Source: Candidatus Muproteobacteria bacterium (GTDB lineage: Bacteria; Pseudomonadota; Gammaproteobacteria; Acidiferrobacterales; SPGG2). From it: a stretch of DNA of 64,000 nt. Within the stretch, counting starts at the first letter, position 1, and the number at the start of each line of letters is the position of its first letter. The DNA is taken from NCBI GenBank assembly GCA_003251795.1, contig QKEI01000055.1:8593-72592 (forward strand), read 5' to 3'. Of the stretch, positions 7,303-52,919 are shown piece by piece. The notes beneath the pieces were generated by a model. It was not told the DNA's origin. It saw only the letters and a program-made list of their open reading frames with translations, and searched no databases. The translations under genes and the position numbers were made by a program.

Positions 7303-7303
7303 A

Positions 7304-12461: not shown

Positions 12462-12558
12462 GATTAACCCTGCAGCCTGCACGGAATAAGGCGTAAGGAA
12501 TCATCTTAGCATTCACCTCGCGCGCAGAGCTATGCATGCGGATCATATCTGACCAGCG

Positions 12559-18042: not shown

Positions 18043-18055
18043 CTGGGATGCGCTA

Positions 18056-21537: not shown

Positions 21538-21540
21538 ACC

Positions 21541-22446: not shown

Positions 22447-22481
22447 ACGCAAACCGAGATGCGGACAACGGAGTAACAGCT

Positions 22482-23324: not shown

Positions 23325-23335
23325 CCGCGTAACAC

Positions 23336-23920: not shown

Positions 23921-23940
23921 ACAGACTCAGCGCGGTGCTG

Positions 23941-25608: not shown

Positions 25609-25621
25609 GATCTATCGCTTC

Positions 25622-26074: not shown

Positions 26075-27279
26075 CAGTCGAGTCGTCGCAACACGTGGGT
26101 GATGCTGACCGCGCAAATGCCGCCGTGGGCATCGGCCAAGCCGACGCGCAGGTCTCGTGCCGGCTGCGCCTCTGGCCAATAGCGCCCTGTGAGCAAGCGT
26201 TGGATGGTCAGCGCCTGCAGAACACCGGTGGCGCCGGGCGCTCCACCCTGCCCAATCAGCCCCCCCGACAGATTCACTGGCAGACGGCCGTCGGCGGCGA
26301 ATTCCCCGTCGCCGCACGCCACACCGCCGCGACCCTCCGCGCACAAACCGAGTGCCTCAACGCCCTGAATCTCGGCGCCGCTGAAGGCATCATAGATCTC
26401 GGCGACATCGATCTCGCTGGCAGGGTCAGTAATTCCGGCCATAGCATACGCTGCTTGGGATGATTGCACCTTGGCGGTAAAGCGATAGCGCGCGCTGCGG
26501 TCACCGAGGCGTACGTAATCCGAGGCGCAGCCGCTACCTGCGATACAGACGCGCGGGCGCGAGGATGCCGGCACGTATTGCGGATCGGACAATACCACGG
26601 CGGCCGCCGCGTCGCTGATCGTCGAGCAATCGAGCAAGTGATAGGGCGTGCTTACCATGGGCGAGGCAAGCACCTGTTCTATAGTCAAAGCCATCGGTCG
26701 ATGTGCCCATGGGTTGTGGCCTGCATTAGCGTGATTCTTTACTGAGACCTGCGCCAGTTGTTCGGCAGTGGTGCCGAACTGTTGCATATGTTCCTGTATC
26801 GATAATGCGTACAGATTTACTGCGGTGGCACCCGCCATGCCTTCCAAGTCAGCGTCGAAGGACAACCCGTAGATCATGCGCACTTCGTCGCTGCTGAGCC
26901 GACTGGCTGTTTGTTCGAAGCCGATCACCAGCACTGTACGCGCCTGGCGTGCGGCGATCTGCATAAAGCCGGTGCGCAGGGCCGCGGCGCCGCTGGCGCC
27001 TCCGCTTTCCACGCGCATCACCGGACACGGTACCAGCCCGATATCGTCGACGATTACCGAACCCGGTGCGACTTGCAGGGAAAAGAAGTCACTCTCGGAG
27101 GCGACAATGACGGCGTCGATGTCGTGCGCTTCCACACCGGCATCGGCAAGCGCGTCTGTCGATGCGATACGCACCCAATCACGCCACGACGAGCCGTCGT
27201 CATAGCGACGCAAAGGTACGGCGCCCCCTCCTAGAAGCAGCGCTCGGGTTAGCCCGCTATCATCTTCTTGGGCAGCCAC
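26074..27279 (-). CDS. Thiolase-fold protein, SCP-x / lipid-transfer-type
   Basis: Thiolase-like core (VESGGASGAAA, GFE) and a glycine-rich C-terminus, with the usual pairing to a DUF35 gene. The start overlaps the dctM end by 31 nt and is uncertain. Confidence 0.8.
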   Translation of the reverse strand: MAAQEDDSGLTRALLLGGGAVPLRRYDDGSSWRDWVRIASTDALADAGVEAHDIDAVIVASESDFFSLQVAPGSVIVDDIGLVPCPVMRVESGGASGAAALRTGFMQIAARQARTVLVIGFEQTASRLSSDEVRMIYGLSFDADLEGMAGATAVNLYALSIQEHMQQFGTTAEQLAQVSVKNHANAGHNPWAHRPMALTIEQVLASPMVSTPYHLLDCSTISDAAAAVVLSDPQYVPASSRPRVCIAGSGCASDYVRLGDRSARYRFTAKVQSSQAAYAMAGITDPASEIDVAEIYDAFSGAEIQGVEALGLCAEGRGGVACGDGEFAADGRLPVNLSGGLIGQGGAPGATGVLQALTIQRLLTGRYWPEAQPARDLRVGLADAHGGICAVSITHVLRRLD

Positions 27280-28562
27280 GTGGCTATCTCCGGATAGGTG
27301 ATGAGCAACGCCAGTACGATCATATCGAACAGGATGAAAGGGATAACACCTTTCACGACATGACGGAAGTCCGTGTACTTGTCGACAGCGCTCATCACCG
27401 CAAACAAGTTAATACCGACGGGTGGTGTGATCACCGATATTTCGATTAACTTGACCAGCACGATACCGAACCAGATGGGGTCGATCTGCAATGCCACGAC
27501 CACCGGGAACAAGAATGGCAGCGTCACGACCATCATGGAAGTGGTATCAAGGAAGCAGCCCAGCACGATATAGAGAATCGAGGCAAAAATCATGAACTTC
27601 AGCGGCGTGTCGGCCACATGCGTGATGGCCAGCACAAGCTCATCAATTACGCCGACCACCACAAGCATGCGTGACAGCAACAACCCGCCGATGAGAATGA
27701 CGAAGATGATGCAGCTGATCGAGGCCGCATCTTGCAATGCTGGCGGCAGCCAACCTCTGAGTGTGCGCTTGTGTCCGAGCGCCAGGCAGAACGCCCCGAA
27801 GGCGCCGGCCGCACCGGCCGCCGACGGCGGGAACAGGCCCGAGTAGATCCCGCCCAGCACCAGCGTCATAAGCACCACCACCGGCCAAACGTAGACGGCC
27901 GCACGCCACTTTTCGCGCAGGCTGGCATCGATGGTGATCGGCGGGGCAAGCGCGGGTTTGAAACGCACCAGTAGGTACACACCCACGAGATAGATAAAAG
28001 CAGTGAGGATACCGGGGATGACACCGGCAATTAGCAGCTGACCGACCGATTGCTCGGTCATGATCGCGTAGATCACCATGGTGATGGATGGCGGGATCAT
28101 CGCGGCGAAGCTGCCAGAACCGGCGATGGCGCCGATCGAGAGGCTGCGCGAGTAGCCGAACTTCATCATCTGCGGGAAGGCTATACGCGTGAACACCACA
28201 GCATTGACAATGGTCGAGCCGGAGATAGCAGCGAAGATTGCGGAACCGACGATGACTGCCTGATAGAGTCCGCCGCGGAAGCGGCGCAACCACAGATCCG
28301 CGGCGTAAAACACACGGTCGGTGATGCCCGAGGTCTCCGCCAGTACCCCCATCAACACGAACATGGGCAACACCGCGAAGGCATAGTTGTTCACTACCCA
28401 GAAGGGCAGGACCGTCAGCTGCCCGGCAGTCAGCGCCGGCCCCGCCGCCAGATACATGCCGGCGATACCGATGGTGCCCATGGCAACGCCCACCGGTATA
28501 CCAGCTGCCAGGAACACAAATAACAGTATCGCGCCGCCGTAACCGATGTAGAGGGGGTCCAT
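27249..28562 (-). CDS. dctM: TRAP transporter large permease
   Basis: A 437-aa polytopic protein with typical DctM sequence character, in dctPQM order. Confidence 0.9.
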   Translation of the reverse strand: MDPLYIGYGGAILLFVFLAAGIPVGVAMGTIGIAGMYLAAGPALTAGQLTVLPFWVVNNYAFAVLPMFVLMGVLAETSGITDRVFYAADLWLRRFRGGLYQAVIVGSAIFAAISGSTIVNAVVFTRIAFPQMMKFGYSRSLSIGAIAGSGSFAAMIPPSITMVIYAIMTEQSVGQLLIAGVIPGILTAFIYLVGVYLLVRFKPALAPPITIDASLREKWRAAVYVWPVVVLMTLVLGGIYSGLFPPSAAGAAGAFGAFCLALGHKRTLRGWLPPALQDAASISCIIFVILIGGLLLSRMLVVVGVIDELVLAITHVADTPLKFMIFASILYIVLGCFLDTTSMMVVTLPFLFPVVVALQIDPIWFGIVLVKLIEISVITPPVGINLFAVMSAVDKYTDFRHVVKGVIPFILFDMIVLALLITYPEIATWLPKKMIAG

Positions 28563-28578
28563 GCGCGCTCAGCTTCTC

Positions 28579-29130
28579 TTAGGAGTCCGTCGTTCCGGGG
28601 TAGCGCGAGTCAGTGCAGCGGTAGCGTTGAGCAAACAATCCGACAATGTCGAAGCAGCATTGGATGCTCAAAAGTGTGGCACCAAAGGCGAGAATGAACC
28701 GTGCAGGCCAGATCGGAAAGTTGATGAGCCCCGGCGCGTACTCGCCGACATTGAAACTGTGCACCGCAGCTGGCCAGGCGAACCAGGCGATCAGTCCAAA
28801 AAACGCTACAGCTAGAACATACTGTGCGACATCAGCCACTCGTTGCAGTATTCTCGGCAAGCGATTGACCAGCACTTCAACGCGTATGTGCTGGCGCCGC
28901 ACCTGGCCAAGCGAGACCGCGAGAAATACGTTGACCACCATCATCGTCGCCATGAACTCAAACGCCGCTGGGATCGGCGAACTCGGTAGCTTGAGCAAAT
29001 CGAGATTGGTGCCGATCACATCGGCCGCCCCAGCGAGCATCATCAGGAGCAGCGCTACGCCTGAGAGGAAGGCGCAAGCTAAGTTGATTCGTAGTAACCA
29101 GTGAGCGATGGCCGCGCGATCCGAATTCAT
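28579..29130 (-). CDS. dctQ: TRAP transporter small permease
   Basis: A four-TM small subunit between dctP and dctM. The ATG at 29130 is preceded by GGAGG. Confidence 0.75.
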   Translation of the reverse strand: MNSDRAAIAHWLLRINLACAFLSGVALLLMMLAGAADVIGTNLDLLKLPSSPIPAAFEFMATMMVVNVFLAVSLGQVRRQHIRVEVLVNRLPRILQRVADVAQYVLAVAFFGLIAWFAWPAAVHSFNVGEYAPGLINFPIWPARFILAFGATLLSIQCCFDIVGLFAQRYRCTDSRYPGTTDS

Positions 29131-29212
29131 GACCAGGCCTCCGGGGTGAGTGCTGGCACAGCAGAACTCCCGGCACGGCCGCAGGCCGTACCGGGAGTGG
29201 ATCAACTAACGT

Positions 29213-30250
29213 CTAGCTACCGACGACCTCGCGCCAGATTGTGATGGTCTTGCGCGCGGCATCACCGCGGCCAAGCTTTTCCTGCTCGGCGATGAAGTCA
29301 GCAAAAAAGTCAGGGTTGGCGGTCTTCCATTGCTTCTTGTCGGCCTCCGGGAATTCATGGAACTGCACACCCTTGGCCTTGAGCGTTGCCACTGCCGTCT
29401 CACCGGCGGCGACCACTTGATCGCGGTCGCGCTTGGCGGCTTCGAACGACACCTGCTGCACTACTTTTTGATGATCCGGCCGCATGTCATTCCAGACAGT
29501 GCGCGAGATCCACACGGCATTGGTCGGACCCTCCCAGAGCGTGATGTCATGCACGTGCTTGGCGACCTCGTAGATCTTGTAGTTGACCATCAGATCAACT
29601 GAGAAGGGAATGCAATCGACGGTGCCGCGGGACAGTCCTTCATAGAGTTCCGGTAATCCCAGTGTCACCGGCACACCGCCCGCAGCCTGCACCATGCGCG
29701 GCATGTCTTTGCCCCAGGTGCGCACCTTTTTACCCTTCATGTCAGACAGTCCGCTTATTTGCTCTTTGCACACGAGCTTATAGGGATTGAGGTGATGGAA
29801 GAACAGGGATTTCATGCCGTTGCGTGCTGCCTCCTGGTCAAACTCGGGCACCTCGGTCAGCAATCGTTCCATGAGTGTGGTGGCTTGTGACACCTCCGAC
29901 ATGGCCATGGGGATCGAGTTCGGAGCCGCATGAAACGGCAGCTCCGCTGGGAAGTAACCGGGCGACATGGCGGCGAGATCGATCGCGCCTTTTTGTATCA
30001 ACCCCAGATTCTCCTTGGCCTTGCCGAGCGCACCTTCCCAGAAGATCTTTATGTTCACTGTGCCGTCCGTGCGCTGGCGGATCTCCTCGGCCCACCATTT
30101 GTCTACCTGCGCGCCGGCGGTGGTTTCCGTCCACTGACTGCTCATGCGCAGCTTGACCAGGCTATCGAGCGCGCGCGCCGGCGATGCAGTGAATACCAGT
30201 GTTGCCGCTGCCAACAATGCGGCTACGATGCCGAATGAACGCGTATACAT
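29213..30250 (-). CDS. dctP: TRAP transporter solute-binding protein
   Basis: A signal peptide followed by a DctP-family periplasmic domain. It is the first gene of the dctPQM operon. Confidence 0.85.
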   Translation of the reverse strand: MYTRSFGIVAALLAAATLVFTASPARALDSLVKLRMSSQWTETTAGAQVDKWWAEEIRQRTDGTVNIKIFWEGALGKAKENLGLIQKGAIDLAAMSPGYFPAELPFHAAPNSIPMAMSEVSQATTLMERLLTEVPEFDQEAARNGMKSLFFHHLNPYKLVCKEQISGLSDMKGKKVRTWGKDMPRMVQAAGGVPVTLGLPELYEGLSRGTVDCIPFSVDLMVNYKIYEVAKHVHDITLWEGPTNAVWISRTVWNDMRPDHQKVVQQVSFEAAKRDRDQVVAAGETAVATLKAKGVQFHEFPEADKKQWKTANPDFFADFIAEQEKLGRGDAARKTITIWREVVGS

Positions 30251-30396: not shown

Positions 30397-32508
30397 ATGA
30401 CTAGCGGCACGCCAGACCTCGGTTCACAGCTCGCCAAGATTAAAGGGGCCAAGGTTATCAAGAGCTTTTGCTATACCTGTCCCTGGCAATGTCCGACCGA
30501 GGTCTTTGTCAGAGACGGCAAGGTTGTTTATCACAAAGGTAATCCGGAATCGCCTAACAATATTGGCTCACGCTGCGCCAAGGGTATGGCGAGCTGGTAC
30601 GTCACCCAGGACCCGGACCGGCTCAAATTTCCGCTGCTGCGCACCAACGCCAAAGGCGGGCCGGGCCAGTTCAAACGCGTCTCCTGGGACGAGGCATTCG
30701 CCTTCATCGCCGATAAGCTCAAGCACATAAAAGACAAGTGGGGTCCGGAGGCGGTCGCCTTTACGTGCCACCACGATCCCAACTCCCATTTCTACTGGCA
30801 CCTGTTGCGCGATCTCTACGGCAGCCCGAACATGTACACGCACACCTCGGGCTGCGAGCAGGACCGACGCGCGGCTTGCCTGACGTTGTTCGGGCACGTG
30901 TTTCCCATGCATGACTTTGCCAACTCGCGCTATGTGATGCTGTGGGGCATGAACATGCTCGGCGCCAATCAGGGGCTGTGGGAAAGCCGGGCGCTGATGG
31001 AGGCCAAGAACAAGGGCTGCAAGCTCGTGGTGGTCGATCCCAACTTCACCGAGACGGCACAGAAGGCGGACGAGTGGGTACCGATTCAGCCCGGCACCGA
31101 TGGCGCGATGGCGCTGGCGATGTGCCGCGTGATCATCGACGATAACCTGTACGACAGCGATTTCGTCAATAAGTACTGCGAGGGTTTCGCCGGATTCCGT
31201 GATCATGTGCGTGACAAGGGCTACACGCCGCAGTGGGCCGAACCTATTTGCGGCATTCCGGCGGCGACCATCACACGCCTGGCGCGCGAGTTCGCTAGCA
31301 CCAAACCGGCGATGTCCGCCATCTTCAAGGGCTCCGGCTACTACACCAACGGCGCCGATGCCGGTCGCGCCTGCTATATCCTCGACGCCATTACCGGCGA
31401 GCTCGATAAGCCCGGCAACCTGCACTTGAAAGACTGGGCACCGCTCGCGCCCGCGGTAAACATCCCGGAGGACGCCAAGGGCAAGGCGACCAAGCCGCCA
31501 CTGCACATTGCCATGGGCTATCCATTGGCGCCCGATCTGCCCAATGCGCGCCTGCCGAACGCTGTCATCAACGCCGACCCCTATCCGGTGAAGGCGCTGT
31601 TCGTGCAGTCCACCAACCCGGTGATGAGTGACCCGAATCGCGATGCCGTGCAAGAAATGTTCAAGCAACTGGAGCTGGCAGTGACCTGCGAAATCTACAT
31701 GAGCGAGACGGCGCTCGAGTCCGACATCGTGTTGCCCGAGACTTCGTTTTATGAACATGCCGAGATTCGCCAGGGCATGTGGTTGGGGCCGGAGGTGGTG
31801 TTGTGCCAGCCCGCGGTAGCGCCCCCGGGAGAGGCTAAGCCAGCGTACGAGATCGTCAAGGGCATCGCCCAGAAGATGGGCTGGGGCCAGTACTTTCCCT
31901 ACGAGAAGTGGGAGGACTGGGGTGAGCTCATGATGAAGGATATACCCATGTCGCTCGCCGAGCTCAAACAAAAGGGTTTCTGGGCTGGTCCGATCCGCTA
32001 CCACCGCGTACCCGAAGGCTTGGCAACTCCTTCGACCAAGGTGGAGATCTATTCCAAGGCCTATGCCGATGCCGGTTTCGACCCGTATCCGGTATACCGC
32101 GAGCGCAGCGTCAAGCCCGATGCGCAGTACCCATTACAGGTCACGCATTCCAAGTTCAGCATGCACTGCAATATTGTCACGCAGAACAACCCTTATCTGA
32201 TGGAGATCTGCGGCGAGAACTGGGTGGAGATCAATACGCTCGACGCGCAGAAGTACGGCATCCAGGACGACAGCTATGTCGTCGTCGAATCACCCAAGGA
32301 CCAGATCAAGATCAAGGCCAAGGTGGTCGAGGGTTTGGTGCCCGGTTGCGTCAGTATCCGCCACGGTCACGGTTTCGGCCACTGGGCCATGGGAACGCAT
32401 GCTAAAGGCAAGGGCGCGCACTCCAATAACCTCATGGACAGCTATACCAATCCGATCACCGGCGCCAACTGTTACAACGAGTGCAAGGTGCGAGTGCGTC
32501 CGGCTTAG
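30397..32508 (+). CDS. Molybdopterin (Mo/W-bisPGD) oxidoreductase catalytic subunit, PsrA/PhsA/ArrA-like, no Tat signal
   Basis: N-terminal FS0 motif CYTCPWQC-x27-C, a candidate Mo-ligand Cys in HTSGCEQD, and MGD-binding segments. The ATG at 30397 has GAGGA upstream. No RR motif is present in either possible N-terminus. Confidence 0.85.
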   Translation: MTSGTPDLGSQLAKIKGAKVIKSFCYTCPWQCPTEVFVRDGKVVYHKGNPESPNNIGSRCAKGMASWYVTQDPDRLKFPLLRTNAKGGPGQFKRVSWDEAFAFIADKLKHIKDKWGPEAVAFTCHHDPNSHFYWHLLRDLYGSPNMYTHTSGCEQDRRAACLTLFGHVFPMHDFANSRYVMLWGMNMLGANQGLWESRALMEAKNKGCKLVVVDPNFTETAQKADEWVPIQPGTDGAMALAMCRVIIDDNLYDSDFVNKYCEGFAGFRDHVRDKGYTPQWAEPICGIPAATITRLAREFASTKPAMSAIFKGSGYYTNGADAGRACYILDAITGELDKPGNLHLKDWAPLAPAVNIPEDAKGKATKPPLHIAMGYPLAPDLPNARLPNAVINADPYPVKALFVQSTNPVMSDPNRDAVQEMFKQLELAVTCEIYMSETALESDIVLPETSFYEHAEIRQGMWLGPEVVLCQPAVAPPGEAKPAYEIVKGIAQKMGWGQYFPYEKWEDWGELMMKDIPMSLAELKQKGFWAGPIRYHRVPEGLATPSTKVEIYSKAYADAGFDPYPVYRERSVKPDAQYPLQVTHSKFSMHCNIVTQNNPYLMEICGENWVEINTLDAQKYGIQDDSYVVVESPKDQIKIKAKVVEGLVPGCVSIRHGHGFGHWAMGTHAKGKGAHSNNLMDSYTNPITGANCYNECKVRVRPA

Positions 32509-32519
32509 GGGGGGCGACC

Positions 32520-33080
32520 ATGCAATACGGTTTCTACTTCGATCATAAGCGCTGCGTGAAATGTCACGCGTGCGAGATTGCCTGCAAGACGTGGAACGAG
32601 GTCGAGATCGGCCCGCGTTGGCGCGAAGTCGTCAAGATTACCTCCGGCACCTTCCCAAACGTGACGGCAATGAATGTGTCGATGGCCTGTATGCATTGCG
32701 GCGATGCGCCATGCCGAAACGCCTGCCCGGTGAACGCGATCAGCAAGCGCACCGAGGATGGCATCGTCCTCGTCGATCAAAACAAATGCATCGGTTGCGG
32801 CTTCTGCACATGGGCGTGCCCATTTAATGCACCGCAGCTCTCGGCCATGGCCGGCAAGATGGAAAAATGTAACTTCTGCCAGACGCCCGGCAAGGAACGG
32901 CCACTCGGCATGCCGCGGGCGTGCGAGGAGATCTGTCCGACCGGTGCCATACGCTCAGGTTCGATGACGGAGCTGGCCAGCAGCGGCCGCGAACGTGCCG
33001 CCGAGCGCCTCGCCGCGCAGGGCCTGCCCGGGTTGATTCTGGATGCGCAGCAGCGCTTTGGCGTTGCCGGCGGTGACTAG
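32520..33080 (+). CDS. 4x[4Fe-4S] ferredoxin-type electron-transfer subunit (PsrB/DmsB-like)
   Basis: CVKCHACEIAC, CMHCGDAPC, CIGCGFCTWAC and CNFC...C cluster motifs. Its ATG lies 12 nt after the alpha-subunit stop. Confidence 0.85.
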   Translation: MQYGFYFDHKRCVKCHACEIACKTWNEVEIGPRWREVVKITSGTFPNVTAMNVSMACMHCGDAPCRNACPVNAISKRTEDGIVLVDQNKCIGCGFCTWACPFNAPQLSAMAGKMEKCNFCQTPGKERPLGMPRACEEICPTGAIRSGSMTELASSGRERAAERLAAQGLPGLILDAQQRFGVAGGD

Positions 33081-33123
33081 GTGACAACGGCGTTTGAGAT
33101 TTTGGGTGAAGAGGGGGGTCAGC

Positions 33124-33468
33124 ATGAACAAGATGAGCAAACCAGAGGTCATCGACGCGCTGTGTGCACTCGCTCACGAAAGCCGTCTCGATATTTTTCG
33201 CTACCTTATTCAGAAAGGCTTCACCGGCGCAGCCGCCGGCCAGATCGCTGGGAAACTTCGTCTGCCGTCGGCGACGCTTTCGTTTCACTTGAGTGCGCTC
33301 AAGCAAGCCGGTCTGGTCGTCGCCCGACGCGAGAGTCGTTCCATCATTTACAGCGCCAGCTTCGACAGCATGAATGCATTAGTGGCTTATCTGCTGTCGA
33401 ATTGCTGTGGCGGTGTGCCGGAGGCGTGTGCCGAGTTGATCTCATTAGACGCAGCGAAAGGCCGCTAG
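33124..33468 (+). CDS. arsR: ArsR/SmtB-family metalloregulator with a C-terminal Cys triad
   Basis: wHTH ESRLDIFRYL...LSFHLSALKQAGLV. The C-terminal SNCCGGVPEAC (a vicinal Cys pair plus a third Cys) is reminiscent of the Acidithiobacillus-type As(III) site. Confidence 0.8.
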   Translation: MNKMSKPEVIDALCALAHESRLDIFRYLIQKGFTGAAAGQIAGKLRLPSATLSFHLSALKQAGLVVARRESRSIIYSASFDSMNALVAYLLSNCCGGVPEACAELISLDAAKGR

Positions 33469-33539: not shown

Positions 33540-34409
33540 ATGTTAGGCCAACAGATCATGAGTGGTTTAGCCACCGGCAGTCTCTATGCTTTGACTGCCG
33601 TGGCGGTGGTCGTGGTCTTCCGCAATACCCGCACTATTAACCTCGCGCAGGGTGATTTCTCGATGATGGGCGCGTTTATCGCCATCATTCTGCTGAAGAC
33701 TTACGGACTCAACTACTATGCGACCATTGTCTTGTGCGTGCTCGCGATCATGGCATTGGGCGTGCTTACCGAGCGCCTGGTCATGCGTCCGATTGCCGAC
33801 TCCGACTGGTTAACGCTGTTTACTGCCACGCTCGGTGTCTACTACATCTTGCACGGCGTTGCCGGTTGGATCTGGGGGCGCGACACCAAGGCATTTCCGG
33901 TTACGTTCGATCCGACGCCGGTGCATATCTTCGGCACAGTCGTCAGTCACGGACACCTAATCAACATGGGTTGGGCGGCGGCCATCGGCGTCGTGTTGTA
34001 CGTATTTTTCAAGTACACCAAACAGGGCATCGCCATGCGCGCTGTTACTGACGACCCGGAAACCGCCAAGCTCATGGGCATCCCCGTCCGGTTCATTGTC
34101 ACACTGACGTGGGCGATGGCGGGATTTCTCGCGGCGTTCATTGGCATCCTGATCGCGCCCATCATCTATGTGGCGCCGGAAATGATGGACGAGGTGTTGA
34201 TCAAGGGTTACGTCGCCGCGGTTTTCGGTGGGCTCTATTCGATCCCAGGGGCGATCATCGGCGCGCTCATGATCGGCGTGGCGGAAAATCTGGCCGGTGG
34301 TTATCTGGGGTCACATTACAAGACGGCCACCGCGTTTGCCATGATTGTGGTCTTGCTTACGTTCAGGCCGCAGGGGCTGTTCGGTATTCAGAAGCGCCGT
34401 GAGATCTAA
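33540..34409 (+). CDS. livH: Branched-chain-amino-acid-type (HAAT) ABC transporter permease
   Basis: LivH-like membrane protein, first gene of a five-gene HAAT cassette. Confidence 0.85.
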   Translation: MLGQQIMSGLATGSLYALTAVAVVVVFRNTRTINLAQGDFSMMGAFIAIILLKTYGLNYYATIVLCVLAIMALGVLTERLVMRPIADSDWLTLFTATLGVYYILHGVAGWIWGRDTKAFPVTFDPTPVHIFGTVVSHGHLINMGWAAAIGVVLYVFFKYTKQGIAMRAVTDDPETAKLMGIPVRFIVTLTWAMAGFLAAFIGILIAPIIYVAPEMMDEVLIKGYVAAVFGGLYSIPGAIIGALMIGVAENLAGGYLGSHYKTATAFAMIVVLLTFRPQGLFGIQKRREI

Positions 34410-34427
34410 GCGCCACGGGAGTAGCGA

Positions 34428-35519
34428 GTGAACGAGATGGTTGCGGCGGCGCGAACGTCTGCGCCGATAGCAAATCGACAGGCTGTTGCCGCGCTGAAAG
34501 CGAGATTCGCGCAACAGAACTGGATCTTCGCCGGTGTCTTGTTTGCATTGCTGGCGCTAGTGCCACTGCTGCCGGTGGTCGAAGGCTGGATGGCGACACA
34601 GGCGGCGCTGGTGATCATCTATATCCTGGCAGCGCAAGGCGTAAGCGTGTTGACCGGCCACACGGGTTTGGTAACCGTAGGTCACGGCGGTTTCCTCGCC
34701 ATTGGTGCCTATACTTCGGCGCTGATGAGCCACTATCTGGGTGCGGATCTGCTGAGCGGTATGATTTGCGGCGGCCTCATGGCCGCGCTTATCGGCTGCC
34801 TTTTGGGTCTGATCTTTCTCAGGCTTGCCGGCGCTTTCATGGCCATCGGTACCTTGGGTTTCGCCTTCTTCATCGGCACCATCGTCAACAACGTGCCGAT
34901 CTTCAATGGACGCACGGGTTTCTCGTTACCGCCGAATAATCTCTTCGGTGTCATCGATATCGGCGATTTCGGGTTCTACTACGTGTGCCTCGTGACCTTG
35001 GCATTAATGACGTTATTCATGTACAGCCTAGTGCGGTCCGGCGTCGGTCGCGCGTTTAAAGCGCTGCGCGATGCCGAGAAGGCGGCACAAAGCAGCGGCG
35101 TAAACCGCCTCTTCTACCGGACTTTGGCCTTTACCATCAGCGCCTTTATCACCGGCGTTGCCGGCGCCTTGAATGGCCACATCGTGAGCTTCGTGTCTGC
35201 CGAGGTCTACGCCGACATCTGGTACTCGGTAGACATTCTGGTCGCAGCCATCGTCGGCGGTTCGGCCATGTTGTTCGGCCCGTTCATCGGTGGTGTCTTT
35301 ATCGTCATGGTGCCGTTCTTCTTCGAGGAGCTGGCAGATTTCTCCTTTATCCTCAAGGGCATCGTCTTGATTGGTGTGCTCATGTTGGCACCAGCAGGCG
35401 TGGCCGACGTCGCGGCCAGACCGTTTCGTGCGATGCGGCAACGCGCGCTCGCTCAGGCGGGCGGCGCGACAGCTCGTGAGCACGGCAGAACAGGTGGATC
35501 GCCTGGGGGCGCGGAATGA
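34428..35519 (+). CDS. livM: HAAT ABC transporter permease
   Basis: LivM-like membrane protein. Confidence 0.85.
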   Translation: MNEMVAAARTSAPIANRQAVAALKARFAQQNWIFAGVLFALLALVPLLPVVEGWMATQAALVIIYILAAQGVSVLTGHTGLVTVGHGGFLAIGAYTSALMSHYLGADLLSGMICGGLMAALIGCLLGLIFLRLAGAFMAIGTLGFAFFIGTIVNNVPIFNGRTGFSLPPNNLFGVIDIGDFGFYYVCLVTLALMTLFMYSLVRSGVGRAFKALRDAEKAAQSSGVNRLFYRTLAFTISAFITGVAGALNGHIVSFVSAEVYADIWYSVDILVAAIVGGSAMLFGPFIGGVFIVMVPFFFEELADFSFILKGIVLIGVLMLAPAGVADVAARPFRAMRQRALAQAGGATAREHGRTGGSPGGAE

Positions 35520-36289
35520 CTCAGCTGCGCTGCGAAAACATTACGGTGAGCTTTGGCGGTGTTGTTGCTTGCAACAACATCAGTCTGGAAGTGCCGACGG
35601 GCAAGATCGTCGGTCTGATCGGTCCTAATGGCGCCGGTAAGACAACGCTATTCAACGTGCTCAGCCGATTCCAGGATCATGATAGCGGCCATATCTATTA
35701 TCGCGATCAAGACATCGACCGCAAAAAGCCGCACCAGATGGTCGAGCTCGGTATGGCGCGCACCTTTCAAAACATCAATCTTTTCGGTGAGCAATCCACG
35801 CTCGATAACATCCTTATTGGTGCGCACCATCTCATCGGCAATCCCTTCGCCGACATGTTCTCGCTGCCGGCGGCGCGCCGCACAGAGCGCTCGTTGGTGC
35901 AGCGGGCAAACGAGATCGCGGAGATGCTGCACATGCAAGACGAACTCGACACCCTCGTCAAGAATCTGCCCTATGGCTATCGCAAGCGCGTTGAGCTGGC
36001 GCGCGCGCTGGCATCGCAGCCCGAGTTGATCCTGCTCGACGAACCGGTGGCCGGTTGCAACGATGAAGAGACCGATGAGCTCAGGGGCATCGTGCAACGC
36101 TTAAATCGCGAGCTCGGCATCACGATTTTTCTGGTTGAGCACGATATGTCGATGGTAATGAATGTGTGCGACTACATTTACGTGATCAACTTCGGCTCCA
36201 ATCTTGCCGATGGCACGCCGGCGGAAGTGCAGGCGAACGCGGATGTCATCAGCGCTTATTTAGGTGAGGAGCACGATGACGCTGCTTAG
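35516..36289 (+). CDS. livG: HAAT ABC transporter ATP-binding protein
   Basis: Walker A GPNGAGKTT, the signature LPYGYRKRVE.. and Walker B LILLDEP. Confidence 0.9.
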   Translation: MTQLRCENITVSFGGVVACNNISLEVPTGKIVGLIGPNGAGKTTLFNVLSRFQDHDSGHIYYRDQDIDRKKPHQMVELGMARTFQNINLFGEQSTLDNILIGAHHLIGNPFADMFSLPAARRTERSLVQRANEIAEMLHMQDELDTLVKNLPYGYRKRVELARALASQPELILLDEPVAGCNDEETDELRGIVQRLNRELGITIFLVEHDMSMVMNVCDYIYVINFGSNLADGTPAEVQANADVISAYLGEEHDDAA

Positions 36290-36995
36290 GCTGGAAAACG
36301 TGGTGGCGAGTTACGGTGCCGTACGCGCGCTGCAAGGTATCTCGATTGATGTGCAGAGTGGCGCAATCGTTGCCCTGCTCGGCGCCAACGGTGCCGGCAA
36401 GTCGACCACGCTAAAGACGATCTCGGGCATGGTGCGACCGGCCTCGGGTTTCGTCGAGTACGACGGGCAGCGCCTCGAGGGCAAGACCCCGAATCAGATC
36501 GTCCGTCTGGGTATCGCCCAGATACCTGAAGGCCGCAAGATCTTCAAGGACTTGACGGTGTCGGAAAATCTGCGCATGGGCGCCTATACGCGCAAGGACA
36601 AGGCGGGCATCGAACAAGACCAGGAGCTGGTGTTTGTGCTGTTCCCGATCCTCAAGGAACGGGCCAGGCAGCTCGGCGGCTCCTTAAGTGGCGGCGAGCA
36701 GCAGATGTTGGCGATCGGCAGGGGCCTGATGGCGCGACCGCGGTTGCTGCTGCTAGATGAGCCGTCGCTGGGATTGGCGCCGCTGCTGGTCGCGGACATC
36801 TTCCAGGCCCTGCGCAGAATCAATAAGGAGCGCGGTACCACATTGCTGATCGTCGAGCAGAACGCACATGTGGCGTTGAAGAACGCTAATTTCGGTTATG
36901 TGCTACAAGTCGGCAGAGTGGCCACTGAGGGTACGTCGGAGGAGCTACAACGTAACAGGGAGGTAGTCGAGTCGTATATGGGAACACAGCAGTAG
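36276..36995 (+). CDS. livF: HAAT ABC transporter ATP-binding protein
   Basis: Walker A GANGAGKST, LSGGEQQML and LLLLDEPS. Confidence 0.9.
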   Translation: MTLLRLENVVASYGAVRALQGISIDVQSGAIVALLGANGAGKSTTLKTISGMVRPASGFVEYDGQRLEGKTPNQIVRLGIAQIPEGRKIFKDLTVSENLRMGAYTRKDKAGIEQDQELVFVLFPILKERARQLGGSLSGGEQQMLAIGRGLMARPRLLLLDEPSLGLAPLLVADIFQALRRINKERGTTLLIVEQNAHVALKNANFGYVLQVGRVATEGTSEELQRNREVVESYMGTQQ

Positions 36996-37071
36996 TGCAA
37001 GAGTGCCATGGAACGGTGTGCTGTAAATGGGGTCAAGAAGTCTTAATTAGGAGGCTCAACTGGAGGTCGAT

Positions 37072-38259
37072 ATGAAACGTCTGATGAAGTTAGTGTTAAC
37101 GCTTGTGAGCAGCGGTGTGCTCGCCTTGCTCTCGGTTCATGCGTCAGCCGCGAATGATCCGGGGGTTAGTGCCAAGGAGATACTTATCTGCTCTTACCAA
37201 CCCATGACCGGCAAGATATCGAGTTACTTCCGCATGGGAAAGGGGGCAGATGCGTGGTTCAAGTATGTCAACGATCAGGGTGGAATCAACGGCCGCAAGA
37301 TCGATTACAAAATGGTTGATGACAAGTACGAGCCGGCACGGACCATGACAGTAGTCAAGCGCTTTATTGAGAGAGACAAGTGTTTTGCCATTGTCTCACC
37401 GCTGGGTTCCGCGCCTACAGCCGCTGTTATCGATTACATCACATCCAAGGACGTGCCGTTGATCGGTGCCGGTACCGGTGCGGAAAAGAACCTGACCTAT
37501 CCAAGTAAGTGGGTATTCCCGCTGTATCCGAGTTATTTCACCGAAGGGCAGCAGCTGGTGCGTTTTGCCAAGGAAGTATTTGGTGCCAAGACAGTGGCCT
37601 TGCTCTACCAGAATGACCCATCCGGCAAGACCCATATCAAGGGCATCGAGTCGGTGCTCGATAAATATGGCGTCAAGCTGGTGGCCCAGGAGGGTTACGA
37701 GCAGAAGGAAGTGGACGTCAGCGCGCAGGTGATTGCCATGAAGAACGCCAATCCAGACGCGGTTATTTGTTCTTGCGCGCCGGAGCCGGCGGCCAAGTTC
37801 TACACCGAGCGCAAGAAGCTCGGCTGGAACGTGCCGGTGGTCAACGTGTTCTTCGGCAAGAGCCCCAAGGTTCCCGAGCTGGCCGGCAAGGACGCGGTCG
37901 AGGGCGTGTACTTCTCTACCATCTTCCGTGACTTCAACTCGCCGGCACCGCAGATTCAACAGGCCAAGGAGTTGCTGAAGAAGTACTATCCGGAGGAGCA
38001 ACCTGACGCGATCCATCTCTGGGGTTTCGCCGGTGCGCAGGTGTTCACCGAGGCCCTGCGCCGCATGGGGCCGGACAACATCACGCGCGCGCGATTGGTG
38101 GAAACCCTGGAAAGCATCCAGGACTGGAAGGGTAGCGTGGTGCCGTCGGTCTCCATCGGTCACGGCAACGCCCCCGAGCACTTCATCGTCAAAGACATGG
38201 CCTGGGTGGTTTATAAGAACGGCGAATTCCAGGACTTCAAGCCACCCTGGGGCGGGTAG
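37072..38259 (+). CDS. HAAT-family periplasmic solute-binding protein (type I PBP)
   Basis: A signal peptide followed by a LivK-like domain. The ligand is unknown. Confidence 0.85.
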   Translation: MKRLMKLVLTLVSSGVLALLSVHASAANDPGVSAKEILICSYQPMTGKISSYFRMGKGADAWFKYVNDQGGINGRKIDYKMVDDKYEPARTMTVVKRFIERDKCFAIVSPLGSAPTAAVIDYITSKDVPLIGAGTGAEKNLTYPSKWVFPLYPSYFTEGQQLVRFAKEVFGAKTVALLYQNDPSGKTHIKGIESVLDKYGVKLVAQEGYEQKEVDVSAQVIAMKNANPDAVICSCAPEPAAKFYTERKKLGWNVPVVNVFFGKSPKVPELAGKDAVEGVYFSTIFRDFNSPAPQIQQAKELLKKYYPEEQPDAIHLWGFAGAQVFTEALRRMGPDNITRARLVETLESIQDWKGSVVPSVSIGHGNAPEHFIVKDMAWVVYKNGEFQDFKPPWGG

Positions 38260-39856: not shown

Positions 39857-39902
39857 ATGCCCCAGCCAGTATTGTCGTCGATTGGCTGTCCGAGGGATAA
39901 GC

Positions 39903-49810: not shown

Positions 49811-49821
49811 ACTTTTTCCTG

Positions 49822-50718: not shown

Positions 50719-50835
50719 GTGCGTTTGTTGCCCGTGAACTTCAACCTATGCCACCACTCGACGGTCTGCCGCATGGATCAAAATAATGAAGCGAAGGCGC
50801 TGTGTCAGCGCCTTCGCTTCCAGTGCCACGACCCT

Positions 50836-52910: not shown

Positions 52911-52919
52911 TCGATCGTC

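What the first reader, a model, noticed from the sequence alone, without database searches (positions are those of the whole stretch)
30397..33468. Orphan cytoplasmic PsrAB/ArrAB-like molybdoenzyme followed by an As(III)-type ArsR
The catalytic subunit has a C-x2-C-x3-C-x27-C FS0 motif and a candidate Cys Mo ligand. It has no twin-arginine leader at either possible start. The four-cluster beta subunit follows, and no membrane anchor (PsrC/NrfD-like) is present. Together this predicts a soluble cytoplasmic enzyme, which is unusual for this clade. Immediately downstream is an ArsR with a C-terminal CC-x6-C cluster. Divergently upstream lie TRAP, thiolase/DUF35 and CoA-ligase genes. The substrate is open: an organic acid or CoA ester, a sulfur compound, or an arsenic/antimony species.
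Basis: partly seen in the sequence, partly recalled or inferred. Interest (0 to 1): 0.6.

Follow-up and report, generated by a model that had tools for sequence, protein, structure and literature searches.

The report
Cytoplasmic molybdoenzyme in an arsenic–methyl-transfer island
The two genes encode a leaderless, cytoplasm-facing molybdenum enzyme of an uncharacterised, tightly conserved clade that is not an orphan: across dozens of uncultured Proteobacteria it travels with a vitamin-B12 methyl-transfer system, a NarI-like membrane protein and, in many genomes, arsenite oxidase, so it may be the missing redox step in bacterial breakdown of methylated arsenic.

Summary
Window 30397-32508 encodes a 703-aa PsrA/PhsA-like Mo-bisPGD subunit with FS0 motif C25-x2-C28-x3-C32-x27-C60, a Cys153 ligand and no Tat leader. 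A 16-Cys four-cluster beta subunit and an ArsR with a C-terminal CC-x6-C follow.

The interpretation needs revision. The enzyme belongs to an isolated clade: 57-88% identity inside it, at most 38% to anything else, and the nearest outgroups carry Tat leaders. All 120 listed close homologs lack a Tat leader.

It is neither orphan nor clearly soluble. Of 76 related loci:
- 41 carry a URO-D-type methyltransferase and 44 a corrinoid protein.
- 32 carry a NarI/EtfD-like membrane protein, which directly follows beta in L084/L085.
- 12-16 have bona fide aioBA, a periplasmic pentapeptide protein and a MIP channel immediately upstream.
- Four alpha-beta loci (the window and three of the 76) carry an As(III)-type ArsR.

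Best reading (about 0.4): a quinone-linked, cytoplasm-facing oxidoreductase that interconverts As(V) and As(III) forms of (methyl)arsenicals for corrinoid-dependent demethylation, with As(OH)3 leaving through the MIP to Aio. This rests on synteny only.

Rivals are methyl-sulfur/selenium chemistry, polyphenol transformation after O-demethylation, and electron supply for corrinoid activation.

The parts
30397..32508 (+). Alpha: leaderless Mo-bisPGD catalytic subunit, 703 aa. It has FS0 (C25/C28/C32/C60), Mo ligand Cys153, and the family signature H125-H126-D127 ... H149-T-S-G-C153-E-Q-D-R157-R158.
32520..33080 (+). Beta: four-[4Fe-4S] electron-transfer subunit, 186 aa, no leader.
   Evidence: All 16 Cys are invariant in 72 sequences. 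Present in 71 of 76 loci.
33124..33468 (+). ArsR/SmtB regulator with a C-terminal CC-x6-C, the putative As(III)-type S3 site.
   Evidence: Homologs with the same Cys motif sit next to alpha-beta in L061, L002 and L005.
33540..38259 (+). LivHMGF-K type ABC transporter. In this window it is inserted between beta/ArsR and the methyltransferase. It is present in 14 loci.
38510..39856 (+). UROD1: divergent URO-D/MtaA-family methyltransferase, 448 aa, with an invariant H311-x-C313 Zn-type motif. It is the most frequent partner of alpha-beta.
   Evidence: (41 loci, about 81% identity)
39882..40739 (+). corr1: cognate corrinoid (B12-binding) protein.
   Evidence: (MtgC/MtbC-like)
40779..41888 (+). NarI/HdrE/EtfD-like polytopic membrane protein, 369 aa, 7-8 TM helices, with invariant H178, H318, H336 and C338. 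It is the candidate quinone-linked third subunit.
   Evidence: (32 loci). Directly follows beta in L084/L085.
41932..42753 (+). Fusion of a P-loop-kinase-like domain with a cold-shock domain, 273 aa. Function unknown; conserved after the NarI-like gene in 23 loci.
42777..43052 (+). Conserved 91-aa protein (c5). No family match. Present in 29 loci.
43049..43984 (+). LysR-type regulator, conserved in 10 loci.
44043..44288 (+). CDGSH-type iron-sulfur protein, 81 aa, present in 29 loci.
44350..44664 (+). Conserved 104-aa protein (c8). No family match. Present in 21 loci.
17551..20545 (+). aioB (Tat leader MVNRRGFIK) and aioA: a bona fide periplasmic arsenite oxidase.
   Evidence: TIGR02693 970 bits against cutoff 359; TIGR02694 153 against 96. 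(777-779 bits, about 55% identity by my reading, to solved AioA; the His/Glu/Arg/His substrate residues as I recall them from 1G8K are kept).. Conserved upstream of alpha in 13-16 loci.
20542..22446 (+). Periplasmic pentapeptide-repeat protein (with a signal peptide) followed by a MIP-family channel. In other loci they sit directly upstream of alpha.
   Evidence: 12 and 14 loci
22443..30250 (.). About 8-kb block separating MIP from alpha in this window: ECH and 5-FTHF cyclo-ligase on the + strand; AMP-ligase, DUF35, thiolase and TRAP DctMQP on the - strand. An orthologous TRAP/ligase/thiolase set recurs next to alpha in L004, L062, L081 and L083.
3756..12482 (-). Second, complete corrinoid methyl-transfer module: GntR, CobW, RACo/RamA-type activase, corr2, UROD2, pterin-binding MT2 and a divergent MTHFR. 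A SAM-methyltransferase-like gene on the + strand (10862-11533) lies inside the block.
48911..53708 (.). PhnCDE-like ABC transporter (-), divergent from an ArsR-ArsC (LMWP) fusion gene (+).

Best explanation
SHOWN. Alpha-beta is the catalytic subunit (Mo/W-bisPGD, Cys153-ligated, FS0) plus a four-cluster electron-transfer subunit of a leaderless, hence cytoplasmic, oxidoreductase. It belongs to an isolated and strongly conserved clade at the Psr/Phs, Arr and acetylene-hydratase corner of the DMSO-reductase superfamily. Its conserved genomic partners are a URO-D-type methyltransferase with a corrinoid protein, and a NarI/EtfD-like membrane protein. In at least four separate branches of the family, aioBA, a pentapeptide protein and a MIP channel lie immediately upstream, and As(III)-type ArsR (with ArsC in one locus) lies downstream.

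INFERRED. The three redox proteins form a cytoplasm-facing, quinone-coupled complex with NarGHI/EtfD-like topology rather than Psr-like topology. This complex carries out the two-electron As(V)/As(III) interconversion of methylated arsenicals. That step is needed once per methyl group when corrinoid methyltransferases (UROD1/corr1, backed by UROD2/corr2, pterin MT2, the RACo activase and MTHFR) strip methyl groups onto tetrahydrofolate.

The direction is not resolved. One option is reduction of MAs(V)/DMAs(V) to the trivalent substrate, as published work on demethylation requires. The other is re-oxidation of the trivalent product.

The final As(OH)3 would leave through the MIP and be oxidised by periplasmic Aio. 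ArsR would sense As(III) or MAs(III) and de-repress the genes.
For: Enzyme anatomy and cytoplasmic location.

Isolated clade:
- The only full-length relative above 40% identity is P0264 (57%). It is leaderless and keeps the same HHD...H-S-S-G-C-D-Q-D-R-R motif.
- The next hits are at most 38% identical, and the four closest inspected carry Tat leaders.

Active site:
- An invariant His/Asp/Arg-rich pocket surrounds Cys153.
- H149, T150 and R158 occupy the positions of ArrA H189, S190 and K198. H125 and K311 occupy those of PsrA H145 and R332 (ArrA and PsrA residue roles from memory).

Synteny:
- Among the 76 loci: UROD1 in 41, corrinoid protein in 44, NarI-like in 32, AioA in 13, AioB in 16, pentapeptide in 12, MIP in 14.
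- Example L016, co-directional and tightly spaced: RACo-CobW-GntR-MTHFRlike-AioB-AioA-penta-MIP-alpha-beta-UROD1-corr1-NarIlike.
- L088: HMT-MTHFRlike-AioB-AioA-penta-MIP-alpha-beta ... ArsC-ArsR.
- alpha-beta-NarIlike are contiguous in L084/L085.
- Aio-linked alphas fall in at least four branches of the alpha tree.

Other arsenic evidence:
- AioA is genuine and AioB has a Tat leader.
- All four ArsRs next to alpha-beta share CC-x4-6-C.
- The window also carries an ArsR-ArsC fusion divergent from a PhnD-type transporter.

NarI-like fold: best matches are EtfD (probability 1.0) and NarI (probability 0.95).

Literature:
- Corrinoid methyltransferases are implicated in As demethylation (bioRxiv 10.64898/2026.08.27.747368).
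- Marine bacteria oxidise methyl groups of DMA/MMA by undetermined enzymes (PMC6426599).
Against: - There is no biochemical evidence. Everything about the substrate is guilt by association.
- The 23 Arenicellales-type compact operons and the 8-9 'alpha-beta alone' gammaproteobacterial loci (7 among the 76, plus L078/L079) show no aio, MIP or ars gene within 10 kb.
- The 712-aa sister subclade (68-71% identity, same active-site motif) sits beside MttB-type (glycine-betaine-like) methyltransferases, sulfatase/FGE, or TRAP/CoA-ligase/thiolase genes, often without beta. This points to a role not specific to arsenic.
- ArrA's Arg165/Tyr166 are His/His here.
- UROD1 has no Cys triad of the kind that binds As(III) in ArsM.
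- The NarI-like protein has only three invariant His, not the four expected for two hemes.
- Seawater arsenic is nanomolar, so a dedicated catabolic island is a priori unlikely.
Confidence: 0.4

Rival explanations
1. Methyl-sulfur or methyl-selenium chemistry. The URO-D methyltransferases would act like MtsA/MtpA on DMS, methanethiol, MMPA or methylselenides. Alpha-beta, being Psr/Phs/Srr-like, would handle the inorganic or oxidised partner in the cytoplasm: (poly)sulfide, thiosulfate, sulfite, selenite, or a sulfoxide such as DMSO or DMSOP. Electrons would go to or come from quinone through the NarI-like protein.
For: - The closest characterised relatives are polysulfide and thiosulfate reductases.
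- H125 and K311 match PsrA H145 and R332.
- URO-D/MtaA family membership of UROD1 and UROD2.
- Related MtaA-like gene clusters have been proposed for methyl-S/Se metabolism (PMC10418091).
- Sulfur-flavoured neighbours occur in some loci: sulfatase/FGE and rhodanese in L080, sulfatase in L055 and L077, TauE/SafE in the window.
- The Arenicellales operons have no arsenic genes.
Against: - It does not explain genuine aioBA-pentapeptide-MIP wedged between the MTHFR-like gene and alpha in 12-16 loci from several orders.
- It does not explain the As-type Cys motif of the adjacent ArsRs, or ArsC.
- Identity to any Psr/Phs is only 28-31%, and the PhsA model score is far below its cutoff.
Confidence: 0.2
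2. Aromatic catabolism. UROD1 and UROD2 would be aryl-methyl-ether O-demethylases of the classical four-component kind (MT I, corrinoid protein, MT II, activase). Alpha-beta-NarI-like would be a quinone-linked hydroxylase, dehydroxylase or transhydroxylase acting on the resulting polyphenol or its CoA ester, functionally like resorcinol hydroxylase or pyrogallol transhydroxylase. Substrates would enter through the TRAP or Liv transporters and be activated by the CoA ligase, ECH and thiolase/DUF35.
For: - The module at 3756-12482 has exactly the MT I/CP/MT II/activase architecture.
- URO-D-family O-demethylases are known (cited in PMC10418091).
- An orthologous TRAP + CoA-ligase + thiolase + DUF35 set recurs beside alpha in the window, L004, L062, L081 and L083.
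- Liv-type ABC genes precede UROD1 in 14 loci.
- Cytoplasmic alpha-beta Mo enzymes without a Tat leader are known for polyphenols (4v4c is among the structural hits).
Against: - Similarity to pyrogallol transhydroxylase is remote (E 4e-18; TM 0.74 and 18% identity), and that enzyme uses a Ser ligand (from memory).
- The invariant pocket is His/Arg/Asp-rich, not hydrophobic.
- It offers no explanation for aioBA/MIP/ArsR/ArsC or for the MttB-linked loci.
- The TRAP block is absent from more than 90% of loci.
Confidence: 0.15
3. Generic service module for aerobic corrinoid methyltransferases. Alpha-beta would oxidise a low-potential cytoplasmic substrate such as sulfite, an aldehyde or a C1 intermediate. 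It would deliver electrons through beta to the RACo/RamA activase to keep the corrinoid in the Co(I) state, or dump them to quinone through the NarI-like protein. It would therefore be independent of which methyl donor is used.
For: - Alpha is found next to RACo, pterin MT2 or MTHFR genes whether the MT1 is of URO-D or MttB type: L084/85, L086, L055, L039, L024, L027, L031, L046, L060 and L061.
- Aerobic MtgBCD-type systems need dedicated cobalamin reactivation (PMC12478193).
Against: - It has no FDH signature, since Cys153 is followed by Glu rather than His.
- The window already encodes a ferredoxin reductase and a [2Fe-2S] ferredoxin that could feed RACo.
- Many alpha-beta loci have no corrinoid gene within 10 kb (L078, L080, L082, L088).
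- It does not explain the Aio/MIP/ArsR linkage.
Confidence: 0.1
4. One reading: a free-standing soluble cytoplasmic PsrAB-like enzyme under ArsR control, whose substrate is an organic acid or CoA ester supplied by the divergent TRAP/thiolase/CoA-ligase genes.
For: - The genes are adjacent in the window.
- The same TRAP/ligase/thiolase set recurs in four other loci.
- Some genomes have alpha or alpha-beta with no conserved partner nearby.
Against: - In 41-44 of 76 loci the neighbours are the methyltransferase, corrinoid and NarI-like genes instead.
- In most MIP-containing loci alpha starts about 200 bp after MIP, so the TRAP block is an insertion here.
- A membrane partner is conserved, and is contiguous with beta in L084/L085.
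Confidence: 0.08

Closest known systems
Polysulfide/thiosulfate reductase PsrABC/PhsABC (T. thermophilus 2VPW; Salmonella PhsA)
   Same: - Best sequence and structural match: E 2e-88, TM 0.85, and the top NCBIfam model.
- Shares FS0, the Cys Mo ligand, a four-cluster B subunit, and residues H125 and K311 at the positions of PsrA H145 and R332.
   Different: - Only 28-31% identical, and below the PhsA model cutoff (436 against 694).
- No Tat leader and no NrfD-type PsrC, so the active site faces the cytoplasm.
- It has its own invariant motif HHD...HTSGCEQDRR.
- Its partner is a NarI-like protein.
Respiratory arsenate reductase ArrAB / anaerobic arsenite oxidase ArxAB (Shewanella ANA-3 6CZ7)
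   Same: - Same structural neighbourhood (TM 0.85) and a Cys ligand.
- H149, T150 and R158 sit at the positions of ArrA H189, S190 and K198.
- An alpha plus four-cluster beta pair that can work without an NrfD subunit.
- An arsenic gene context.
   Different: - 21% identity, and ArrA model score 187 against a cutoff of 1600.
- No Tat leader.
- ArrA R165/Y166 are replaced by H125/H126.
- Linked to corrinoid methyltransferases, which Arr and Arx are not.
Acetylene hydratase (Pelobacter acetylenicus 2E7Z)
   Same: Cytoplasmic and leaderless, of similar size (727 aa), with FS0 and a Cys ligand. TM 0.84.
   Different: - Acetylene hydratase is monomeric and non-redox, and needs Asp13 next to the second FS0 Cys. 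Here that position is Pro29.
- This enzyme has a dedicated four-cluster partner.
NarGHI / EtfD-type cytoplasm-facing quinone-linked complexes
   Same: - The proposed topology: a cytoplasmic catalytic subunit, an FeS subunit and a NarI-fold membrane protein.
- The NarI-like gene matches Pfam Nitrate_red_gam and folds like EtfD and NarI.
   Different: - The catalytic subunit is not NarG-like (type II).
- The membrane protein is longer (369 aa, 7-8 TM helices) and has three rather than four invariant His.
- Complex formation has not been shown.
Aerobic split corrinoid methyltransferase systems (MtgBCD/RamA of Ruegeria; four-component O-demethylases; CmuAB)
   Same: Corrinoid protein, pterin-binding MT2, RACo/RamA activase, MTHFR paralog, and homocysteine/BHMT-type modules in the same island.
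   Different: - The substrate-specific MT1 is a divergent URO-D-type protein with no solved relative.
- A molybdoenzyme and arsenite oxidase are embedded in the cluster, which was not found described for any such system in the searches made here.

Membership tests
DMSO-reductase (Mo/W-bisPGD) superfamily | Molybdopterin and Molydop_binding domains with an N-terminal FS0 Cys motif | tested here: met
   Pfam hits at 2e-48, 2.5e-16 and 4e-11. C25/C28/C32/C60 are invariant.
DMSO-reductase (Mo/W-bisPGD) superfamily | Protein ligand to Mo at the conserved position | tested here: met
   Cys153 aligns with PsrA Cys173 and the ArrA ligand Cys. It is invariant in 121 sequences. Metal content cannot be tested.
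PsrABC/PhsABC | Twin-arginine leader on the A subunit (periplasmic active site) | tested here: not met
   No RR motif at either start. 117 of 120 homologs start 22-34 residues before FS0, most at 23-24.
PsrABC/PhsABC | NrfD-type integral membrane subunit C in the operon | tested here: not met
   None was found in the annotated parts of the window or in the Pfam-annotated related loci.
PsrABC/PhsABC | Score above the curated PhsA equivalog cutoff | tested here: not met
   436 bits against a cutoff of 694, split over three stretches.
PsrABC/PhsABC | Four-[4Fe-4S] B subunit | tested here: met
   16 invariant Cys in four groups.
ArrAB/ArxAB | Score above the curated ArrA equivalog cutoff | tested here: not met
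   187 bits against 1600 for ArrA; 92 against 450 for ArrB.
ArrAB/ArxAB | Arsenate-binding residues (R165, Y166, H189, S190, K198 of ANA-3 ArrA; roles recalled from memory) | tested here: inconclusive
   The H189, S190 and K198 positions hold H149, T150 and R158. R165 and Y166 are replaced by H125 and H126. All are invariant in the family.
Acetylene hydratase | Catalytic Asp directly after the second FS0 Cys; no electron-transfer partner | tested here: not met
   C28 is followed by Pro29. Beta is present in 71 of 76 loci.
Formate dehydrogenase | Cys/Sec-His dyad at the Mo ligand | tested here: not met
   C153 is followed by E154, which is nearly invariant at 120 of 121.
NarGHI/EtfD-like cytoplasm-facing membrane complex | NarI-fold membrane subunit encoded with the catalytic subunits | tested here: met
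   Pfam Nitrate_red_gam, 30 bits against a cutoff of 22.9. Foldseek matches to EtfD (probability 1.0) and NarI (0.95). Present in 32 of 76 loci. Contiguous with beta in L084/L085.
NarGHI/EtfD-like cytoplasm-facing membrane complex | Four conserved His as axial ligands of two b hemes | tested here: inconclusive
   Only H178, H318 and H336 (plus C338) are invariant. H318 and H336 are 18 residues apart, as in NarI helix V (NarI spacing recalled from memory).
NarGHI/EtfD-like cytoplasm-facing membrane complex | Physical complex and quinone reactivity | not testable with these tools
   Requires purification or a multimer model.
As(III)-responsive ArsR (AfArsR type) | ArsR/SmtB winged helix plus a C-terminal three-Cys As(III) site | tested here: met
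   HTH_20/HTH_5 domains. The CC-x6-C motif is seen here, and CC-x4-6-C in the three orthologs beside alpha-beta. The AfArsR motif (C95, C96, C102) is recalled from memory. Metalloid binding was not tested.
Arsenite oxidase AioBA (neighbour) | Equivalog-level scores, Tat-Rieske small subunit, substrate-binding His/Glu/Arg/His | tested here: met
   970 bits against 359, and 153 against 96. 777-779 bits, about 55% identity by my reading, to solved AioA; the four residues are kept in the alignment, their roles recalled from 1G8K. AioB has the leader RRGFIK.
Corrinoid methyltransferase system (MT1/CP/MT2/activase) | All four components encoded together | tested here: met
   UROD1/corr1. UROD2/corr2/pterin MT2/RACo.

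The most novel reading that the evidence does not exclude
The island encodes a previously unknown, cobalamin-dependent and respiratory-chain-coupled pathway by which aerobic or microaerobic Proteobacteria use methylated arsenicals (DMA, MMA, possibly arsenobetaine) as methyl-group donors.

Proposed steps:
1. A cytoplasm-facing Mo/FeS/NarI-like complex shifts arsenic between +5 and +3.
2. URO-D-type (or, in the sister clade, MttB-type) methyltransferases pass the methyl groups through corrinoid proteins to tetrahydrofolate.
3. The As(OH)3 released exits through a dedicated MIP channel.
4. Periplasmic arsenite oxidase oxidises it for energy.

This would supply the unidentified enzymes of the marine 'parasitic arsenic cycle' and the unidentified methylarsenate/dimethylarsenate reductase.
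Probability: 0.3. Interest if true: 0.9.

Novelty: new variant of a known kind. Interest (0 to 1): 0.7.

Why it matters
If the arsenic reading holds, three things follow.

- **Candidate genes for an open question.** It would provide the first candidates for two steps of the arsenic cycle that are measured in seawater and soils but, in the literature searched here, have no assigned bacterial genes. One is reduction or re-oxidation of methylated arsenicals. The other is oxygen-independent removal of their methyl groups. Heterologous expression and metatranscriptomics could then test the idea directly.

- **A new enzyme architecture.** Independently of the substrate, the finding defines a new, widespread clade of DMSO-reductase-family enzymes. 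The clade has more than 120 clusters at 90% identity, and every genome hit was a metagenome-assembled genome of uncultured Alpha-, Beta- or Gammaproteobacteria. Its architecture is unusual: a PsrAB-like catalytic pair facing the cytoplasm, paired with a NarI/EtfD-like membrane protein instead of PsrC.

- **An undescribed linkage.** Molybdoenzymes have not been described as partners of aerobic corrinoid methyltransferase systems.

Tried and rejected
- **Tat signal at an alternative start.** Rejected. The 904-916-aa homologs have disordered N-terminal extensions, not leaders or beta fusions.
- **Formate dehydrogenase.** Rejected because there is no Cys-His dyad.
- **Acetylene-hydratase-type hydratase.** Rejected because there is no Asp after the second FS0 Cys and a beta subunit is conserved.
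- **TRAP/thiolase/CoA-ligase and ArsR as the conserved partners.** Tested by tblastn over 76 loci. They occur in only 1-3 of those loci, although the TRAP block later turned up in L081 and L083.
- **Cultured or annotated relatives.** None found on PLSDB plasmids; the best hit is PhsA at 31%. All 76 genome hits are MAGs.
- **Solved relative of UROD1.** None found.
- **Sequence-based PDB search for the NarI-like protein.** Nothing found. Only the fold search gave matches.
- **Promoter, terminator and inverted-repeat scans around alpha and ArsR.** No more hits than chance, and no operator-like palindrome.
- **Literature.** Eight full-text searches found no description of this cluster. The ArrA structure paper could not be retrieved, so the roles assigned to ArrA residues rest on memory. 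The residue identities themselves were checked against the 6cz7 alignment.
- **Gene calling.** My greedy ORF caller was unreliable in high-GC loci (for example the MIP and ArsR frames). Synteny counts therefore rely on tblastn with window proteins and on the precomputed gene calls of the look-up of encoding contigs.

Full report
**1. Checking the observation**

The region holds three co-directional genes.

Alpha (30397-32508, 703 aa) has the Molybdop_Fe4S4, Molybdopterin and Molydop_binding domains. Its FS0 motif is C25-x2-C28-x3-C32-x27-C60. Cys153 aligns with the Mo ligand Cys173 of Thermus PsrA and with the ligand Cys of ArrA (chain position 153 of 6cz7_A).

There is no Tat leader. The in-frame extension to TTG 30292 contains no twin arginine. 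ATG 30397 has a GAGGA 8 nt upstream. Of 120 homologs, 117 begin 22-34 residues before FS0, most at 23-24, with a conserved DLGxRLAxIKGAK N-terminus. The other three carry a disordered extension of about 200 aa.

Beta (32520-33080, 186 aa) has four Cys groups, and all 16 Cys are invariant in 72 sequences. The ArsR (33124-33468) ends in NCCGGVPEAC. TRAP DctPQM, thiolase, a zf-ChsH2/DUF35 protein and an AMP-ligase lie divergently upstream.

**2. Where the enzyme sits among known families**

No curated model is reached. PhsA scores 436 bits against a cutoff of 694, in three stretches. Fdh-alpha scores 302, DmsA 274 and ArrA 187 against 1600.

The best solved relatives by sequence are PsrA (2e-88), acetylene hydratase (5e-63) and ArrA (4e-54). 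An AlphaFold model (pLDDT 82) is about equally close to all three: PsrA TM 0.85 at 28% identity, acetylene hydratase 0.84 at 25%, ArrA 0.85 at 21%.

In a library clustered at 50% identity the family collapses to a single full-length relative, P0264 (57%, leaderless). The next hits are at most 38% identical. The closest of these (P0268, P0269, P0271, P0274) have classical Tat leaders and different active-site sequences.

Within the family, 294 of 703 positions are at least 98% conserved. These include H125-H126-D127, H149, C153, D156-R157-R158, F169 and H172-D173. P0264 keeps the same motif.

Residue comparisons:
- H149, T150 and R158 occupy the positions of ArrA H189, S190 and K198.
- H125 and H126 replace ArrA R165 and Y166.
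- H125 and K311 match PsrA H145 and R332.
- Pro29 replaces the catalytic Asp13 of acetylene hydratase.
- Glu154 replaces the His of the FDH Cys/Sec-His dyad.

The roles of the ArrA, PsrA, acetylene hydratase and FDH residues are from memory. Their identities were read from the alignments. The pocket is polar and cationic, as expected for an oxyanion or metalloid substrate.

**3. Genomic context is the main result**

A scan of one genome per species returned 76 loci. All are MAGs of Burkholderiales, Usitatibacter, Rhodospirillaceae, Magnetovibrio, Methyloligellaceae, Hyphomicrobiales, Arenicellales and unclassified Gammaproteobacteria.

TRAP, thiolase and ligase occur in 1-3 loci, and ArsR in 3. 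Other genes of the window are frequent:

| Partner | Loci (of 76) |
|---|---|
| URO-D-type methyltransferase UROD1 (about 81% identity) | 41 |
| Corrinoid protein | 44 |
| NarI-like membrane protein | 32 |
| 91-aa protein c5 | 29 |
| CDGSH protein | 29 |
| P-loop/CSD fusion | 23 |
| 104-aa protein c8 | 21 |
| Liv-type ABC transporter | 14 |
| MIP | 14 |
| AioA | 13 |
| AioB | 16 |
| Pentapeptide-repeat protein | 12 |
| RACo | 14 |
| CobW | 13 |
| GntR | 13 |
| Pterin MT2 | 12 |
| Divergent MTHFR | 10 |

Typical layouts:
- Arenicellales have a compact operon, alpha-beta-UROD1-corr1-NarIlike-(P-loop/CSD)-c5.
- Magnetovibrio L016 reads RACo-CobW-GntR-MTHFRlike-AioB-AioA-penta-MIP-alpha-beta-UROD1-corr1-NarIlike-c5-LysR-CDGSH-c8, all on one strand.
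- L088 reads HMT-GYD-MTHFRlike-AioB-AioA-penta-MIP-alpha-beta-HAD-x, followed by a convergent ArsC(LMWP)-ArsR pair.

The window contains all of these genes, spread out by two insertions. One is the ECH-to-TRAP block between MIP and alpha. The other is ArsR plus the Liv genes between beta and UROD1. A second complete corrinoid module lies at 3756-12482.

**4. The arsenic genes are genuine**

Window AioA scores 970 bits on the arsenite-oxidase equivalog (cutoff 359), and AioB scores 153 (cutoff 96). AioA matches solved AioA structures at 777-779 bits, about 55% identity by my reading of the alignment, and keeps the His/Glu/Arg/His residues that I recall as the substrate-binding set of 1G8K. AioB has the Tat leader RRGFIK, and the pentapeptide protein has a signal peptide.

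The ArsRs beside alpha-beta in the window, L061, L002 and L005 all carry CC-x4-6-C at the C-terminus. This resembles the three-Cys As(III) site of Acidithiobacillus ArsR (from memory). The window also has an ArsR-ArsC(LMWP) fusion divergent from a PhnCDE-like transporter.

In a neighbour-joining tree of 83 alphas, the Aio/MIP-linked members fall in at least four separate branches of the 703-aa clade. The linkage is therefore not a single recent transfer.

**5. The 'missing anchor'**

The 369-aa protein at 40779-41888 matches Pfam Nitrate_red_gam and weakly matches the QmoC membrane domain. It has 7-8 hydrophobic helices. Its AlphaFold model (pLDDT 84) finds mycobacterial EtfD (probability 1.0) and E. 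coli NarI (probability 0.95) as the best folds.

In L084/L085 the order is alpha-beta-NarIlike with no gene in between. I infer a cytoplasm-facing, quinone-linked three-subunit complex. This is not proven. Only three His (178, 318, 336) and Cys338 are invariant, so the heme content is uncertain.

**6. Evidence that complicates the arsenic reading**

A 712-aa sister subclade (68-71% identity) occurs in several different contexts:
- Next to MttB-family methyltransferases, a corrinoid protein, RACo, GntR and pterin MT2 (L084/85, L055, L057, L039).
- Next to RACo and MTHFR (L086).
- Next to an orthologous TRAP/CoA-ligase/thiolase/DUF35 set (L081; L083, which also has HMT and a MIP 73% identical to the window's).
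- Next to sulfatase/FGE (L080) or TRAP/hydantoinase/TPP genes (L082).

In this subclade beta is often not adjacent. Some large gammaproteobacterial genomes have alpha-beta with no conserved partner. The most general association is thus with corrinoid and tetrahydrofolate methyl transfer. The arsenic association is strong but confined to part of the family.

**7. Mechanistic proposal**

Removing a methyl group from arsenic and delivering it as a methyl cation equivalent to Co(I) and then tetrahydrofolate changes arsenic by two electrons per methyl. Experimentally, DMAs(V) and MMAs(V) must first be reduced to the trivalent form before demethylation, and no reductase gene is named there (PMC10579292). 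Corrinoid methyltransferases of methanogens are implicated in DMAs demethylation. SAR11 oxidises the methyl groups of DMA and MMA through undetermined enzymes (PMC6426599).

A cytoplasm-facing Mo enzyme of the Psr/Arr type, wired to quinone, is a natural candidate for this redox step. The methyltransferases, activase and MTHFR would carry the methyl groups into C1 metabolism. The MIP and periplasmic Aio would dispose of, and gain energy from, the As(OH)3 released. The ArsRs would sense the trivalent species.

What is shown is the anatomy, the cytoplasmic location, the clade isolation and the synteny. What is inferred is complex formation, the substrate, the direction of the reaction and the regulation. 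I put this explanation at about 0.4.

**8. Novelty**

Eight full-text searches found no description of this family or cluster. Public annotations call it 'thiosulfate/polysulfide reductase chain A' or a generic molybdopterin oxidoreductase. The enzyme is of a known kind, a DMSO-reductase-family alpha-beta pair. The variant is new in three respects: an isolated leaderless clade, a NarI-like rather than NrfD-like partner, and embedding in a corrinoid methyl-transfer and arsenite-oxidase island.

Noticed in passing
window 48911-53708: A PhnCDE-like ABC transporter sits on the - strand; its PhnD scores 252 bits, just under the cutoff of 261. It is transcribed divergently from a gene that fuses an ArsR HTH domain to an LMWP-type arsenate reductase domain. 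This suggests arsenic-responsive control of a phosphonate-type importer, and methylarsonate is a methylphosphonate analogue.
   Followed up: partly
window 20542-21537 and 12 related loci: A pentapeptide-repeat protein of about 320-330 aa with a signal peptide is always inserted between aioA and the MIP gene. No role for such a protein in arsenite oxidation is known to me.
   Followed up: partly
window 41932-42753; 23 loci: A conserved protein fuses a degenerate P-loop kinase-like domain (weak (d)CMP-kinase match) to a C-terminal cold-shock domain. It directly follows the NarI-like gene. Its function is unknown.
   Followed up: partly
P0087, P0091, P0094 (homologs of alpha, 904-916 aa): Three homolog clusters have a low-complexity N-terminal extension of about 200 aa. 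It contains a twice-repeated W(S/K)SDRL(R/K)RI(L/M) motif ahead of the normal start. It may be a mis-called start or a real appended region.
   Followed up: no
L039 7330-9468 and 10001-12112: Two alpha paralogs (67% identical; one of the 712-aa type and one of the 703-aa type) lie in tandem and share one beta gene. An MttB homolog, a corrinoid protein and RACo lie downstream.
   Followed up: partly
L031 18790-21631; L048 11591-14425: More distant AioBA-like pairs (36-49% identical to the window's Aio proteins) lie within 10 kb of alpha-beta in a Methyloligellaceae MAG and a Burkholderiaceae MAG. Their substrate is unknown.
   Followed up: no
window 12559-14590 (-): A betaine-homocysteine S-methyltransferase (444 bits against a cutoff of 338) lies next to an ArsR-HTH/SAM-methyltransferase-domain fusion. 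The fusion resembles the SahR type of methionine-cycle regulator (from memory), not a metal sensor.
   Followed up: partly
window 15467-17002 (+): A ferredoxin-NAD(P) reductase (Pyr_redox_2 + Reductase_C) and a small [2Fe-2S] ferredoxin sit between the corrinoid module and aioB. The ferredoxin is conserved in 9 loci. They are possible electron donors for the RACo activase.
   Followed up: partly
window 54331-58087: An FNR-like/[2Fe-2S] reductase with a DmmA-like N-terminal domain and a 521-aa Rieske protein lie here. They may form an oxygenase-type N- or O-demethylase. If so, the window holds both oxygen-dependent and corrinoid-dependent demethylation systems.
   Followed up: no
window 45413-47169 (-) and 47536-48216 (-): A second homocysteine S-methyltransferase-like gene, a canonical MTHFR and a HAD hydrolase lie here. 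A HAD hydrolase also directly follows beta in L088.
   Followed up: no
L087 (Logan SRR17658275 contig 9840): A public read-set assembly contains a 21.9-kb contig whose NarI-like protein is 100% identical to the window's and whose downstream gene order is the same. The organism, or a very close relative, has therefore been sampled elsewhere.
   Followed up: partly
window 2623-3759 (+): A TauE/SafE-family (sulfite exporter-type) membrane protein lies next to the GntR regulator of the corrinoid module. Succinyl-CoA-synthetase-like genes lie at 20-1947.
   Followed up: no
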